Assembly: GCA_951406725.2 (NCBI GenBank)
Contig: OX597820.1
Span: 22,816,001-22,880,000, forward strand
DNA length: 64,000 nucleotides
Source: Octopus vulgaris
Lineage: Eukaryota
Direction of reading: 5' to 3'
Below are positions 18,201 to 36,330 of the stretch, in pieces; position 1 is the first letter of the stretch; each line of letters opens with the position of its first letter. Made by a program: the position numbers.

Positions 18201-21200
18201 AGAGTGTGCCATAAAATGAACCAAGGCACTAAAATTACTGGCATTAGGAAAAGCATCTAACCAAAAAAATCATGCCAAAATGTAGTATAAAAATGTGACA
18301 TAGGGTTCAACACATCTAGGAAGATAAACACTCTGAATAAGTATTAGCTCAGACTGTAGCAAGCCATCCATGTTTTGCAAGCCATGGAGAAGCAGATGTA
18401 ACATTATAACAATAACAATGATGGTGAAGATGAATGTACCTACATCCACTACTTTTTAAAGATGCTAGAATATGAAAGATAACTTGACTTCTACTTCTAG
18501 GATGTCAAGCATGTGACAGCTTAGAGGTTCTCTCATTAGATTGTACAGTAGTATTAAGTTGCTTTTTTTTTTGTTCAACTCGACGTCAGCTTTGATCAAG
18601 CAGATTATTATGATCAAACGGGTTCCGGTTATGATTATCCACCTTTTTTTTTTCAGACATAATGTCTGAATAGCAAAATCAGACGTGTGACTTTAGAAAT
18701 GTACACCCAATAATGCCTTTGTTGCTGTTCAGAATAACTTACTGGTTTGTTGGTTAGTGTAAATCAAAGCTCTTTGAAACACCAAAAATGAAAGCAGCAA
18801 ATAATATTCAATATACTTACACAGATTAAATGAAGTATATTAGTCACAACTATAAAAACCAAATAATAATAACCATTTCACTATCTACCATTTTCCTACA
18901 ATTCCTAGTAGTAACCTTCAACTCAATCAGATACAATGCCATAATGTTCCAAATCATGATGGATATCATCATTCAATGCCAACTTCTACATGCTTCCATG
19001 GGTCAGGTGGAGTTTATTGAGGCAGATTTTCCACCTCAATAAATTTTCTACCAATTGGATGCCCTTCCAGTTGCCAACCCTCACCTGTTTCCAAGTAAAG
19101 TAATATTTTTCAAGAGCTAGACGTGTATTTCATGGAATACTGGAAATGAACAACCATCCTTGTAAGATGACTATGATATACAACCATCACATAATGTCTA
19201 GATAAGAGTACACACAAACAACACAAAATGGGCTTCTTTTAGGTTCTGTCAACTAAATCCACTCACAAGCCAGGTGACTATAGTAGATGACACTTGTCCA
19301 AAGCACTGCACAGTGGGAATGAACCCAAGACCACATGGTTGGCAAATAAGTTTCTTAACCACACAGCCACATCTGCACCAAACATTAATGATATATCTAT
19401 TAGAGTGGAAAAGTCATAAAATGGATTATTTGCAAAAGTCATCAAACTAGCAAATTCCTAGGTACTAAGTCTGGATAATATTTATTTTCATGGGATTGTA
19501 CTGCTAGTATTTCAACCAGGACAAAATATAATATACAATTTTTTTTTTTACCCTGTATGTAGAATATAGCTGAATCAAACCCAATATCTTTATATCTGTA
19601 TATTTAAGCAATAGATTAAGATTATAAAAGAAGTCTGACTGAGTATCGCGATATTTTCTATACAAAATGATATAAAATGCATGAAAATTATAAAGAAGAG
19701 AAGAAGAAAAACAAAATAAAACATCAAAAAGCTGAAGAGGAATAATAAACATATGGTGAGATGTGATGATAAGAACTGCAATAATAAATGTTGCAGGTCA
19801 ACAGTAAGCAGTGCAGAGGTAGACCAAAGAAAGAAAAAAGAAAAAGAAAAAAAACTGGAATAAACTAGTTTGAGTAGATGTAAAAAGGATAAGACTTTAA
19901 AAGGAAATGTCACAGCCAGAAATAAACATTGAACGGAGAGATCAGAGAGACTGGGCTAACCTATACCTGAAGAGAAAGATTAATATCAAAATAATAATAA
20001 TAATAATAATGGTGATGGTGATTAATATGCCTCCCCACTTCATTCTCCACTAGAATTTAGACCTTTCCCTTTGAACTTCAATGTATCATACCCAAAATAC
20101 ATGAAAACAGAATGCTCGATTTAGGGGTGGGTAAAGAAGACCTAAGCAAACTATGGAAAATATTATTTTAAACCAATAAGGAAAGCACTAAGAAAGATTT
20201 TCAGAGGCATTAATGAACTCAGGGGAGGGGAGGAAACATATTATGAGAGAGAGGGGGGGATTTGTTGGCATTTTACATCTGTTTTTCCAAGCCAGTATGG
20301 GTGGGTGGAGTTCTTTGAGGCAGGGTTCTACAGTCAAACAACCTCTTTTGGAACCAACCCTTCTATTTGCCTTTAATGACACACTGGGATGCAGTGTACC
20401 TATTCTACACCTAGAATGCACAAAGTACCCCAGTTGCTGCGTGGTAAGAAGTTTGCTTCCCACCCACATGATTCTGCGTTCAGTCCCACTGCGTTGTACC
20501 CAACGCAAATGTTTCCAATGACAGTCCTGGGTTGACCAAAGCCCTGTGAGTAGATTTGGTATATGGAAACTGAAAGAAGCCCATTGTGTGTGTCTTTGTG
20601 TTTGTCCTGCACCACCACTTGACAACCTGTGTTGGTTTGTTTATGTTCCTGTATTTTAGCAGTTTGGCAAAAGAGCCCAATAGAATAAGTACCGGGGTTG
20701 ATTTTGTTTAACTGAAACAAAAATCCCCAAAAAAAAAAAAAAAATGGAACAACTTCAAGGGCAGTGCCCCAGCATGGCTGCAATCCAAGTATACACATGT
20801 GATGGATTTTGCCCTGGGGCAACCAATGTCCTGTGAACAAATTTGTTCCCAGGACATTGATTGCCCCAGGCCCATAGTAGTAAACACTAGCCCAACATGC
20901 CATGCAGTGGGATTGAACTTGAAACCACATAATTATGAAGTAGGTTTCTTTTAATCACACAGCTGCGTGTGTGTGCATGCGTGTGTACCTGTTTAGTGTT
21001 GACTGTCAGAAAAAAAGTATTCAATACCATTGTAGAGATTAATATCTTTATTTTAGTCAAGTCTGTCTCTTGTTACTCTGAGATTCACAAGAGAGTGCAG
21101 AGGGTCTTTCAAATATACGAAGATATGTCTTTTAAATATTTTCTTTATGTTTAATACTTAACAATGGATGGATTCTATGGAAACATCAAATCAAAGACAC

Positions 21201-33900: not shown

Positions 33901-36330
33901 ATCAACCAGCCCCCACTCAACCCCCACCCACTCCCCTTGAAACTGTTGGCCTTGTGGCATAATTGGAAATAATCATTTACATCCATAATCAATACCAGTA
34001 ACTTTTGGCAGAGCAGGGCTTCTTTAGATGAATCCAAGACATTATGAGAGCCAATTTCATTAAGACTGGAATGACAAAGGGCAAAGCCTGACCTCGGCAG
34101 AATTTGACATTAAAAAAGCATGGTGAAGTGCCAAATTATCATGTAATAAGGTGTAATGATTTCCTTATGAAGGCCCAAAAGCACAGATCTACAGGGAGGA
34201 AGCAAAACTGATGATTGGATTAATGGTGCCATTCAAAAGAATTGGTTCCAAGACAAGATCAAAGCTTGCCAGAGCTTACCTCATGCTGTATGGCACAAAT
34301 GAATGAAAGAAGAAGAGGGAAGAAAAAGAAGAAAAAATATAGAAAACAAAAAAGAAAAAGATGAAGAACAACAACAAGGTGATGATGATTTCTATTTTTA
34401 GAACTAAAAACTTGAATTTCAGATAATGGAGAAATAAGCTGCAGTGAACTTCATGTCTTCGTCAATAGCAGGAACAAAACAAAGTAAATAGTTCTAACTT
34501 GAGAATTGAAGCTGCCATTCATTGCACAGACATAAATCTAAAGCTAAAATTATTTTAACAATATACACACACACACACATTCTCCCCTACCTTACATTTA
34601 GATTAAAGGATTGACTACAAGGAAAACATCTTATGGCATATTAGAAGATGTATTTCTAAGTAGTGTGACTGGTATAAGGAAGAAGAAACAAGCTCAAATT
34701 ACACACGAATAATTATAAATACACGATGTTAGCACATTTTATTATGTGATTAAGGCAGAACCACCTAGTGTCAGTAAAAGAAGGAACTGGAGTGGTGCCA
34801 TATCAAACAAAGCAAGCACATCAAACTCAATCTCAGTATTGGATAATACTGTGAAAGTTTTGATGCCAAATTTTGTCTGAGTTCCCTAAAATAAAAACAA
34901 AAATCCTATGAACTGAAGCTGGTTTGAAATAAAATTGTAGGAAAAAATGTACAGGGTTATGTACTTACTTCTTGATTAGCATTAGATAATTCTTCTTCTA
35001 ATACTGCAACTCGTTCCAAAGATACCCGTAGTCGTTCCCGGACCTAAAACGAAATGCAAAATTCAACATGTAAAAGAGATTCATACAAGTATATAAATTT
35101 ATGCTATTGTAGCAATAAACATAAAAATGTGCTGAAAAAATTTTTTTTTAAAAAAGGGAGTAACTTAACTTTTGAGTAAAGCAATACAGCAAGAAACACA
35201 ACTAGTATCACTTGAACCAAAACAGATTGTAGTGACACTATAAGTTTTAGAAGTTAGACCAAATAGAGGTTAGCAATAAATGATAATGATATATGAAATT
35301 TAAAGAGATAGAGTTAGGGGCCATTTAGCTTAATGGTCAGAGCACTCAGCCTGTATGGGATTTGACACTCCATAACCATCTGCTGGCAAGTCTTTTGCAA
35401 GGTGGTGCCCTAGCATGGCCACAATATCAAATGGCTGAAACAAATAACAAAAAACACACACACACTCAATCAAGATAGTATAAAATTCTTTTAAACAACT
35501 CATTTCACCAAATGTGATTCATGGAACATCAAATAATTTTCCAAAGTTCTTTTAGTGTGGAACCTCCCTTATCAGTAGCATTTATGAACTGATCAAATGT
35601 GTAGCAAAGATAATATACTTTAAATGTTGCAGTAACACCTGGGTCCATTGTTTGCAAAAGAGAAGTTCTATTGGGCAGCATAAATGCTAATCTAACTTTT
35701 GAATGGTGGTGCTATAGAGATTGCGAAGAAATGGCATTATCTTTGATTAGTAACACATGGATATGAATGCTTCTTTTTATTTTGATATTTCTTTCATTTC
35801 ATATATGAAGTAATGCAAAAACAAATCTATCTCCAAAAATGCATTAGTAACCCAAGCATTTTTTGCTCTCCATATGAATGGAAACACAGCCTTACAAAAC
35901 CTTTCAGTGCTCTTGGATTTTCAACACAATGAATGGCTCTTAGCCACTAGTTACATTACTTCTAAACAATAACATTAACAGATATCGAGCTGGCAGAAAC
36001 GTTAGCACGCCAGGCAAAAGGCTTAGCAGTATTTCATCTGCCGTTACGTTCTGAGTTCAAATTCTGCCGAGGTTAACTTTGCCTTTCATTCTTTCAGGGT
36101 TGATAAATTAAGTACCAGTTAAGCACTGGGGTCGATGTAATCGACTTAATCCGTTTGTCTGTCCTTGCCTAGGCGTAGGAGTGGCTGTGTGGTAAGTAGC
36201 TTGCTTACCAACCACATAGTTCTGGGTTCAGTTCTACTGCTTGGCACCTTGGGCAAGTATCTTTTACTATAGCCTCGGGCCAACCAAAACCCCCTGTGAG
36301 TGGATTTGATAAATGGAAACTGAAAGAAGC

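What the first reader, a model, noticed from the sequence alone, without database searches (positions are those of the whole stretch)
19961..34285. Candidate microexon battery at one coiled-coil junction of liprin-alpha
Seen: in the 26 kb phase-0 intron between NANQE and LFTLREQ, the sense strand has several AG-short exon-GT units with pyrimidine tracts and lengths divisible by 3: 6 nt HE (34280), 9 nt CRK (27621), 21 nt LYCMENK (27017), 3 nt A (26038) and 21 nt ILLRAEK (21727), plus a 6-nt stop unit (19961). Established: bilaterian neural microexons are promoted by SRRM4/eMIC-domain proteins through UGC motifs near the 3' splice site; liprin-alpha is a presynaptic scaffold whose coiled coil binds RIM and ELKS; its LAR-family partners use microexons. 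Inference: combinatorial inclusion could tune this coiled coil in cephalopod neurons, with the two 7-aa inserts keeping heptad register and the shorter ones shifting it. Caveat: some such units are expected by chance in 26 kb.
Basis: partly seen in the sequence, partly recalled or inferred. Interest (0 to 1): 0.75.

Follow-up and report, generated by a model that had tools for sequence, protein, structure and literature searches.

The report
Chance microexon look-alikes, one candidate
In a 26-kb intron of the octopus liprin-alpha gene, five of six proposed tiny exons look like chance matches, and one 6-base unit has good splice signals but no transcript support.

Summary
The window carries three minus-strand exons of Octopus bimaculoides liprin-alpha. 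The intron between ...NANQE and LFTLREQ... is 26,246 nt and phase 0, as stated. All six units sit at the quoted coordinates.

As a set they are what chance gives. There are 539 in-frame open AG-(3..30 nt)-GT units on the sense strand, against 593 antisense and 554±32 in simulations. At the signal quality of four of the five coding picks, 10 were observed against 7.2±3.0 expected; the 3-nt unit is weaker.

All 14 lophotrochozoan liprin-alpha proteins that span the junction join it directly. The junction lies in helix H3 of CC1, the self-assembly module. RIM and ELKS bind CC2.

One unit stands out: the 6-nt CATGAG (His-Glu), 34285-34280. It has a 98-nt pyrimidine tract, a 104-nt AG-free zone, UGC at -10 and a GAG|GTAAGC donor. 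A unit this good is expected 0.1-0.34 times per intron, so I put its reality near 0.25.

No cephalopod transcripts or genomes could be consulted. Verdict: no battery, one testable candidate, low interest.

The parts
63569..63733 (-). Liprin-alpha coding exon A (LLLEHLEC...ALDEK; end of CC1-H2 and start of H3)
   Evidence: tblastn of P0003. Acceptor ...caacag and donor AAG|gtaagt read. Matches PDB 7D2H and 7D2E.
34969..35043 (-). Coding exon B (VRERLRVSLERVAVLEEELSNANQE; CC1-H3), 75 nt, phase 0
   Evidence: Aligns to residues 34-58 of 7D2E.
8723..34968 (-). Intron B, 26,246 nt, phase 0. About 18% is covered by repeats that recur within the window. No Rfam, tRNA or Pfam signal.
8594..8722 (-). 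Coding exon C (LFTLREQQAKSRHSS...DLHPK; end of H3 plus the Ser-rich linker)
   Evidence: 100% identity to P0001 and P0002 (Octopus bimaculoides).
34280..34285 (-). HE unit, CATGAG: the only credible candidate microexon. Acceptor ...tgtgccatacag, donor GAG|gtaagc.
   Evidence: Donor 7/8, AG-free zone 104 nt, UGC at -10, one CUCU upstream. Not in a repeat.
34288..34385 (-). Pyrimidine-rich (CU-rich) tract that abuts the HE acceptor
   Evidence: It is one of only 6 sense-strand tracts (60 nt, >=85% Y) in the 64-kb window.
27621..27629 (-). CRK unit. The acceptor side is good (AG-free zone 58 nt, UGC at -16, five CU motifs) but the donor GTTACC is poor. Judged chance.
27017..27037 (-). LYCMENK unit, donor GTAGCA (5/8). 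Judged chance.
26038..26040 (-). A unit (GCT), donor GTAATC (4/8), no UGC. Judged chance.
21727..21747 (-). ILLRAEK unit, donor GTACAA (5/8), no UGC. Judged chance.
19961..19966 (-). GTATAG unit with an in-frame TAG. It does not fit a recursive splice site either. Judged chance.

Best explanation
The flagged stretch is an ordinary long, repeat-bearing, phase-0 intron of the Octopus bimaculoides liprin-alpha gene. It interrupts the coding sequence of helix H3 of the CC1 coiled coil. The six AG-short ORF-GT units are the kind of look-alike that any 26 kb of 34%-GC sequence supplies by the hundred. There is no microexon battery, and the normal mRNA joins 34969 directly to 8722. One unit, CATGAG at 34285-34280, cannot be dismissed on sequence alone; it is treated as a rival below.

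Shown: the units exist, their number is at chance level, and known proteins join the junction directly. Inferred: the units are not used.
For: - Counts at chance level: 539 sense against 593 antisense raw units. The mid-quality class is 10 against 7.2±3.0 expected, and the weak class 24 against 18.0±5.3.
- Five of the six units have donors of 4-6 out of 8. The three real exons score 7-8 out of 8.
- In an all-frame control over six region-strands, 16 of 11,100 units pass a filter built from published eMIC features. That predicts about 1.25 among the 538 in-frame units of this intron; 2 were observed.
- 14 of 14 lophotrochozoan liprin-alpha proteins that span the junction show no insert: 3 Octopus entries, 7 from other named or unnamed molluscs, 3 unnamed transcript-derived proteins and 1 annelid. 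By eye, the same holds for 11 of 11 named amniote liprin-alpha-3 representatives.
- No repeat, RNA family, tRNA or protein domain gives the units any other meaning.
Against: - The HE unit is the single best of the 11,100 AG...GT units examined on both strands. It has every published cis feature of an eMIC-type microexon.
- Vertebrate liprin-alpha genes do carry eMIC-dependent exons, so the gene-level prior is not low.
- The protein evidence is weak for a neural-only 2-residue insert. The database shows one representative per 90% cluster, and the cluster members could not be listed.
- No cephalopod RNA-seq or second cephalopod genome was available.
Confidence: 0.7

Rival explanations
1. The HE unit (34285-34280) is a genuine, probably neuron-enriched 6-nt microexon. 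The proposed mechanism: Srrm234 carrying the eMIC domain binds the UGC 10 nt upstream of the AG and, together with the long CU-rich tract, recruits U2AF and U2. The strong GAG|GUAAGC donor supplies exon definition. Inclusion would insert His-Glu between E194 and L195 (P0003 numbering), which are heptad positions g and a. That would de-register the last two core residues of CC1-H3 (L195, L198) and so shift the H2/H3 dimer-tetramer balance that governs liprin-alpha self-assembly. Only the cis signals are shown. Inclusion, regulation and the protein effect are all inferred.
For: - Donor 7/8, equal to the real exons.
- AG-free zone of 104 nt, against 23-58 nt for the real exons.
- Py40 of 0.85, against 0.475-0.65 for the real exons.
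- UGC at -10 and CUCU upstream, matching the UCU_CUC[N1-50]UGC enhancer, the long AG-exclusion zone and the strong 5' splice site described in passages of 10.1101/2024.09.17.613571 and 10.1101/2021.02.24.432780.
- It lies 683 nt from the upstream exon and is not in a repeat.
- It is the only one of 6 sense-strand pyrimidine tracts that is followed by AG, a short ORF and GTAAG.
- Expected number of units this good in this intron: 0.095 (with UGC) to 0.30-0.34.
- Mouse Ppfia1 and Ppfia3 have exons labelled eMICdep (supplement of PMC8797185).
Against: - No transcript or protein shows the insert (0 of 14).
- The thresholds were partly chosen after seeing the unit.
- A chance event of 1 in 3 to 1 in 10 is not rare across a genome scan.
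- Conservation is untested.
Confidence: 0.25
2. One reading: several of the units are alternative microexons used combinatorially to tune the coiled coil. The 7-residue inserts would keep the heptad register and the shorter ones would shift it.
For: - All lengths are multiples of 3 and the frames are open.
- By eye, LYCMENK would put L and M at heptad positions a and d.
- CRK has a good acceptor-side architecture.
Against: - The class frequency equals chance.
- The donors GTTACC, GTAGCA, GTAATC and GTACAA are weak.
- Six unpicked units are equally good.
- No insert appears in any protein.
Confidence: 0.03
3. The units are recursive splice sites, or intermediate exons, that help remove the 26-kb intron stepwise and do not reach the mature mRNA.
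For: The intron is long. The GTATAG unit begins with GT directly after an AG.
Against: - Of 69 AG|GT sites on the sense strand, only 2 have a pyrimidine tract with a donor of 4/6 or better, and none reaches 5/6. Control strands give 0-2.
- HE begins with CA, so it cannot rebuild a 5' splice site.
Confidence: 0.02

Closest known systems
SRRM3/4 (eMIC)-dependent exons of vertebrate liprin-alpha genes. These are mouse Ppfia1 (63 nt) and Ppfia3 (27 nt), labelled eMICdep in the supplement of PMC8797185; Ppfia2, named among nSR100-regulated microexon genes in a passage of PMC4387716; and the zebrafish ppfia4 microexon, in passages of PMC13281805.
   Same: Same gene family. A short, frame-preserving cassette with, for HE, the same cis code: UGC near the AG, a long CU-rich tract and a strong donor.
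   Different: Inclusion of the octopus unit has not been shown. The positions of the vertebrate exons in the protein were not available to me, so equivalence of position is untested. The 11 amniote liprin-alpha-3 representatives I read show no insert at this junction.
Mini-exons meA and meB of LAR-type receptor phosphatases (PTPRD/S/F). I saw only the start of the abstract of PMC12598525 in the listing.
   Same: Tiny neural cassette exons in the same synaptic complex. They change binding surfaces by a few residues.
   Different: They lie in extracellular Ig domains of a different protein and are experimentally established.
Five-residue insert NAYFQ in Haliotis asinina liprin-alpha-1-like isoform X2 (P0006)
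   Same: A short annotated insert in a molluscan liprin-alpha, exactly at an exon junction.
   Different: It is at the next junction (HPK|RLSNGS), not the flagged one. No counterpart was found in the part of that intron held in the window: the single pattern match was on the wrong strand and at chance level.

Membership tests
eMIC / SRRM3/4-dependent neural microexon (tested for the HE unit) | Length 3-27 nt, frame-preserving, no stop | tested here: met
   6 nt, CAT GAG, in a phase-0 intron.
eMIC / SRRM3/4-dependent neural microexon (tested for the HE unit) | UGC motif close to the 3' splice site, downstream of the pyrimidine tract | tested here: met
   UGC at -10. The feature is as described in passages read.
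eMIC / SRRM3/4-dependent neural microexon (tested for the HE unit) | Long AG-exclusion zone and a long CU-rich pyrimidine tract | tested here: met
   AG-free zone 104 nt, Py40 0.85 and one CUCU within 80 nt. The tract is 34385-34288.
eMIC / SRRM3/4-dependent neural microexon (tested for the HE unit) | Strong 5' splice site (the mammalian pattern) | tested here: met
   GAG|GTAAGC scores 7/8 on a simple consensus count, equal to real exons B and C. No trained cephalopod splice model was available.
eMIC / SRRM3/4-dependent neural microexon (tested for the HE unit) | Inclusion in mRNA, enriched in neurons | not testable with these tools
   No RNA-seq was available. 0 of 14 database proteins carry an insert. 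Cluster members could not be listed.
eMIC / SRRM3/4-dependent neural microexon (tested for the HE unit) | Dependence on the eMIC domain of Srrm234 | not testable with these tools
   That the eMIC domain is present across bilaterians comes from a passage of PMC8797185. It was not checked for octopus here.
eMIC / SRRM3/4-dependent neural microexon (tested for the HE unit) | Conservation of the exon and its flanks in related species | not testable with these tools
   The genome collection on hand holds only bacteria and archaea.
eMIC-type microexon (the other five units) | Strong 5' splice site together with a UGC-bearing acceptor | tested here: not met
   Donors score 4-6 of 8. A, ILLRAEK and the stop unit have no UGC. 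CRK and LYCMENK have a UGC but donors of 5/8.
Liprin-alpha (the host gene) | CC1 helices H2 and H3, a CC2 domain and SAM domains | tested here: met
   Exons A and B match 7D2H and 7D2E, E = 7e-9 to 3e-11. The full-length near-identical protein P0003 carries PF25526, PF00536 and PF07647 (precomputed). Those exons lie outside the window.
Recursive splice site / RS-exon | Pyrimidine tract followed by AG|GTRAGT, which rebuilds a 5' splice site | tested here: not met
   No site with a donor of 5/6 or better in intron B sense. 2 weak sites, against 0-2 on control strands.

The most novel reading that the evidence does not exclude
CATGAG at 34285-34280 is a lineage-specific octopus neural microexon. 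It would insert His-Glu at a g/a heptad boundary about ten residues before the end of CC1-H3. That would unzip the last heptad and shift liprin-alpha between the H2/H3 dimer and the tetramer/oligomer states that seed active-zone condensates. It would then be a splicing switch on presynaptic scaffold self-assembly, evolved independently of the vertebrate liprin-alpha microexons.
Probability: 0.25. Interest if true: 0.45.

Novelty: not a real feature. Interest (0 to 1): 0.18.

Why it matters
If the verdict holds, nothing follows beyond a caution. In AT-rich, 26-kb cephalopod introns, in-frame AG...GT units with fair pyrimidine tracts occur by the dozen, so they cannot be read as microexons without transcript or conservation data.

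If the HE unit proves real, it would add a molluscan case to the observation that liprin-alpha genes repeatedly acquire eMIC-type exons. PMC8797185 calls such genes 'hotspots' (passages). It would also place a splice switch in the CC1-H3 self-assembly helix, for which the review PMC8044993 notes that the physiological regulators are unknown (passage). That would be a new member of a known kind, of moderate interest to synapse biologists.

Tried and rejected
- **Isoform listing.** I stopped there, so the 11 members of the Octopus cluster remain unseen.
- **Exon B alone.** At 25 aa it is below the 40-aa minimum of the search for homologous proteins. It could be searched only against the PDB. I did not pad it.
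- **Joined-exon step.** I left out any search with joined exons or with exon-microexon-exon peptides. All searches were exon by exon. I also did not use the junction region of P0003 as a query, because that would be the same step by another route.
- **Third protein search.** Unused. An intronic ORF through HE has no Met and is F/L-rich low-complexity sequence, so a useful hit seemed too unlikely for the cost.
- **NAYFQ-type microexon.** Back-translated pattern, 3 mismatches allowed: one plus-strand match at chance level.
- **RNA genes.** Rfam at gathering thresholds gave 0 matches, and ARAGORN found 0 tRNAs.
- **Intronic ORFs.** Pfam on 10 of the 14 intronic ORFs of 90 aa or more gave 0 families. 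The 4 not sent lie in the (AT)n array.
- **Repeats.** None of the six units lies in a repeat that recurs within the window.
- **Recursive splicing.** Rejected.
- **Literature.** No paper on cephalopod liprin-alpha splicing was found:
  - 'liprin-alpha' + 'microexon': 6 papers
  - 'microexon' + 'octopus': 4 papers
  - 'liprin' + 'cephalopod': 4 papers, one mention of each term per paper
- **Unseen supplements.** The 2026 preprint 10.64898/2026.09.05.749416 analyses O. bimaculoides exons (two passages).
- **Primary structure paper.** The paper on CC1 H2/H3 was not in the library. I relied on passages of the review.
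Full report
**What the window is.** A search with the translation of 8722-8594 returned two UniRef entries of Octopus bimaculoides at 100% identity. It also returned a 1172-aa transcript-derived protein, P0003, at 98% identity, carrying the Liprin-alpha CC2 and SAM Pfam domains. 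A tblastn of P0003 against the window places three coding exons on the minus strand:
- Exon A, 63733-63569 (boundaries read)
- Exon B, 35043-34969
- Exon C, 8722-8594

Everything else in the window is intron. GC is 27-39% along the window and there are no N.

**Checking the observation.** Exon B ends ...AAT CAA GAA|gtaagt, encoding NANQE. Exon C begins tatatag|CTG TTC ACA, encoding LFT.

**Is it more than chance?** As a set, no.
- Counting every AG-(3..30 nt, multiple of 3, no stop)-GT unit gives 539 on the sense strand of the intron and 593-594 on the antisense strand. It gives 554±32 in 300 second-order Markov simulations, 206 of which reached the observed value.
- I scored signal quality with a simple, stated rule. 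The donor score counts matches to AG|GTRAGT out of 8. The acceptor needs a pyrimidine fraction of at least 0.7 over -23..-4, and YAG.
- With a donor of at least 4/8, the intron holds 24 units against 18.0±5.3 simulated. The five control region-strands gave 17, 14, 19, 10 and 1.
- With a donor of at least 5/8, it holds 10 units against 7.2±3.0.
Six others of equal quality were not picked. The 3-nt A unit scores 4/8.
- For calibration, the three genuine exons score 7-8 of 8 at the donor and 0.65-0.75 at the acceptor.

**The one exception.** CATGAG at 34285-34280 has these signals:
- A GAG|GTAAGC donor scoring 7/8.
- A 98-nt CU-rich tract, 34385-34288, that abuts its AG.
- An AG-free zone of 104 nt, against 23-58 nt for the real exons.
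- A pyrimidine fraction of 0.85 over 40 nt, against 0.475-0.65 for the real exons.
- A UGC at -10 and a CUCU upstream.

These are the features that passages of two preprints give for eMIC/SRRM3/4-dependent microexons. They list a strong 5' splice site, and a strong pyrimidine tract and branch point set back from the AG. They also list a bipartite UCU_CUC[N1-50]UGC enhancer, long AG-exclusion zones and UGC close to the 3' splice site.

**How unlikely the HE unit is.**
- From empirical rates of good acceptors and good donors over 127 kb of intron strands, the expected number of units this good in this intron is 0.30. With the UGC requirement it is 0.095.
- In an all-frame control, 7 of 11,100 AG...GT units on six region-strands reach the 'strong' class. 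That predicts 0.34 among the 538 in-frame units; 1 was seen.
- A filter built from the published features (AG-free zone of at least 40 nt, UGC within 30 nt, a CU motif, donor of at least 6/8) passes 16 of 11,100 units, 13 of them on sense strands. That predicts about 1.25 in-frame units here. Two were seen: HE, and a 3-nt unit at 17598-17596 that lies inside a repeat with up to 11 matching copies in the window.
- HE is the best of all 11,100 units, and the only one of six sense-strand pyrimidine tracts followed by AG, a short ORF and GTAAG.
- Some of my thresholds were set after I had seen it. I read it as a 1-in-3 to 1-in-10 chance event. Given that liprin-alpha genes do host such exons in vertebrates, I put the probability that it is real at about 0.25.

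**Protein evidence.** Exon B, at 25 aa, is below the minimum of the large protein search. The joined-exon search, and any search with exon-microexon-exon peptides, was left out.

Of the 19 proteins examined:
- 14 span the junction, and all 14 join ...N(Q/N/T)E directly to LF.LRE. They are three Octopus entries; named entries from Liolophura, Haliotis (two species) and Argopecten; one unnamed mollusc; three unnamed transcript-derived lophotrochozoan proteins; and the annelid Dimorphilus.
- Two are genomic ORFs that begin in the intron just before LFTLREQ (P0007, P0012).
- Two gene models run on past the junction into sequence starting with V, as expected from GT... (Batillaria P0026, Centruroides P0077). 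This indicates that the intron position is old.
- One flatworm fragment is too diverged to judge.

By eye, 11 of 11 named amniote liprin-alpha-3 representatives are also direct, and one fish model diverges at the junction.

This evidence is weak against a neuron-specific 2-residue insert. The database shows one representative per 90% cluster, and the tool that lists cluster members was switched off.

**Where the junction lies in the protein.** Exon B aligns to residues 34-58 of the 78-residue chain 7D2E (liprin-alpha-2), and exon A to 7D2E residues 6-34 and 7D2H residues 39-66. Passages of the review PMC8044993 identify 7D2H as H2 and 7D2E as H3 of CC1, the helices that drive liprin-alpha self-assembly. 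The same passages place RIM and ELKS binding in CC2.

By inspection (inference), the 3-4 hydrophobic spacing L174, V181, L184, L188, A191, L195, L198 (P0003 numbering) puts the junction between heptad positions g and a. Only two core positions follow before the Ser-rich linker. A 2-residue insert would therefore de-register only the last heptad or so of H3.

**Surroundings.**
- About 18% of the intron is covered by short interspersed repeats that recur in the window, up to 11 matching copies.
- There is a 437-bp (AT)n array at 12188-12624, plus other simple repeats.
- There is no Rfam family and no tRNA.
- There is no Pfam domain in 10 of the 14 ORFs of 90 aa or more. The other four lie in the (AT)n array and were not sent.
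- None of the six units lies in a repeat.
- Recursive splice sites are not enriched.

**Comparison with what is known.** Neural microexons in vertebrate liprin-alpha genes are established:
- Ppfia1, Ppfia2 and Ppfia4 are named in a microexon network (one passage of PMC7821500).
- Ppfia2 is named among nSR100-regulated microexon genes (one passage of PMC4387716).
- A ppfia4 microexon mutant exists in zebrafish (two passages of PMC13281805).
- Mouse Ppfia1 (63 nt) and Ppfia3 (27 nt) exons are labelled eMICdep (four passages of supplement file 1 of PMC8797185).

Passages of PMC8797185 state that eMIC programs were almost completely rewired between phyla, while recurring in the same genes. A lineage-specific octopus microexon would thus be a new member of a known kind.

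**Verdict.** The units exist, but the battery is not a real feature. One 6-nt unit is a reasonable candidate that simple expression and conservation data would settle. Interest is low.

Noticed in passing
Protein P0006 (Haliotis asinina isoform X2); corresponds to the junction after window 8594: This annotated isoform carries a 5-residue insert, NAYFQ, exactly at the next exon junction (HPK|RLSNGS). If molluscan liprin-alpha has a short alternative exon, the annotated one is one junction downstream of the flagged intron. A degenerate pattern search found no counterpart in window 1-8593. The only match was on the plus strand at chance level.
   Followed up: partly
window 3500-3598, 28830-28919, 1295-1438, 17435-17574 (minus); 36464-36604 (plus): The 76-residue insert of the UniRef O. 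bimaculoides model P0002, at the HPK|RLSNGS junction, matches interspersed repeat copies in the window at 51-87% identity. That part of the model therefore looks repeat-derived rather than genuine coding sequence.
   Followed up: partly
window 62434-62571 (minus); 24312-24419, 29894-29974, 38830-38951 (plus): The C-terminal tail of the UniRef model P0001 (the last 70 residues or so) matches another interspersed repeat family in the window at 63-81% identity. This suggests the truncated model ends in a repeat.
   Followed up: no
window 17197-18019, 30768-31322, 28829-29242, 33504-33858, 20432-20692, 24270-24544: Short interspersed repeats, each matching 6 to 11 other places in the 64-kb window. 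They were not classified. No Pfam, Rfam or tRNA signal was found.
   Followed up: partly
window 12188-12624: An (AT)n microsatellite of about 437 bp (220 copies, 77% matches). It generates the longest 'ORFs' of the intron on both strands.
   Followed up: no
whole window: Long pyrimidine tracts (60 nt, at least 85% Y) are skewed to the transcribed strand: 6 on the gene's sense strand against 2 on the antisense strand. Units passing the eMIC-type filter are skewed the same way, 13 sense against 3 antisense.
   Followed up: partly
Proteins P0026 (Batillaria attramentaria) and P0077 (Centruroides sculpturatus isoform X2): Both models leave the liprin-alpha sequence exactly after the ...NQE/...NEE junction and continue with V... 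This is consistent with read-through into an intron at the same position in a gastropod and a scorpion, so the intron position appears ancient.
   Followed up: no
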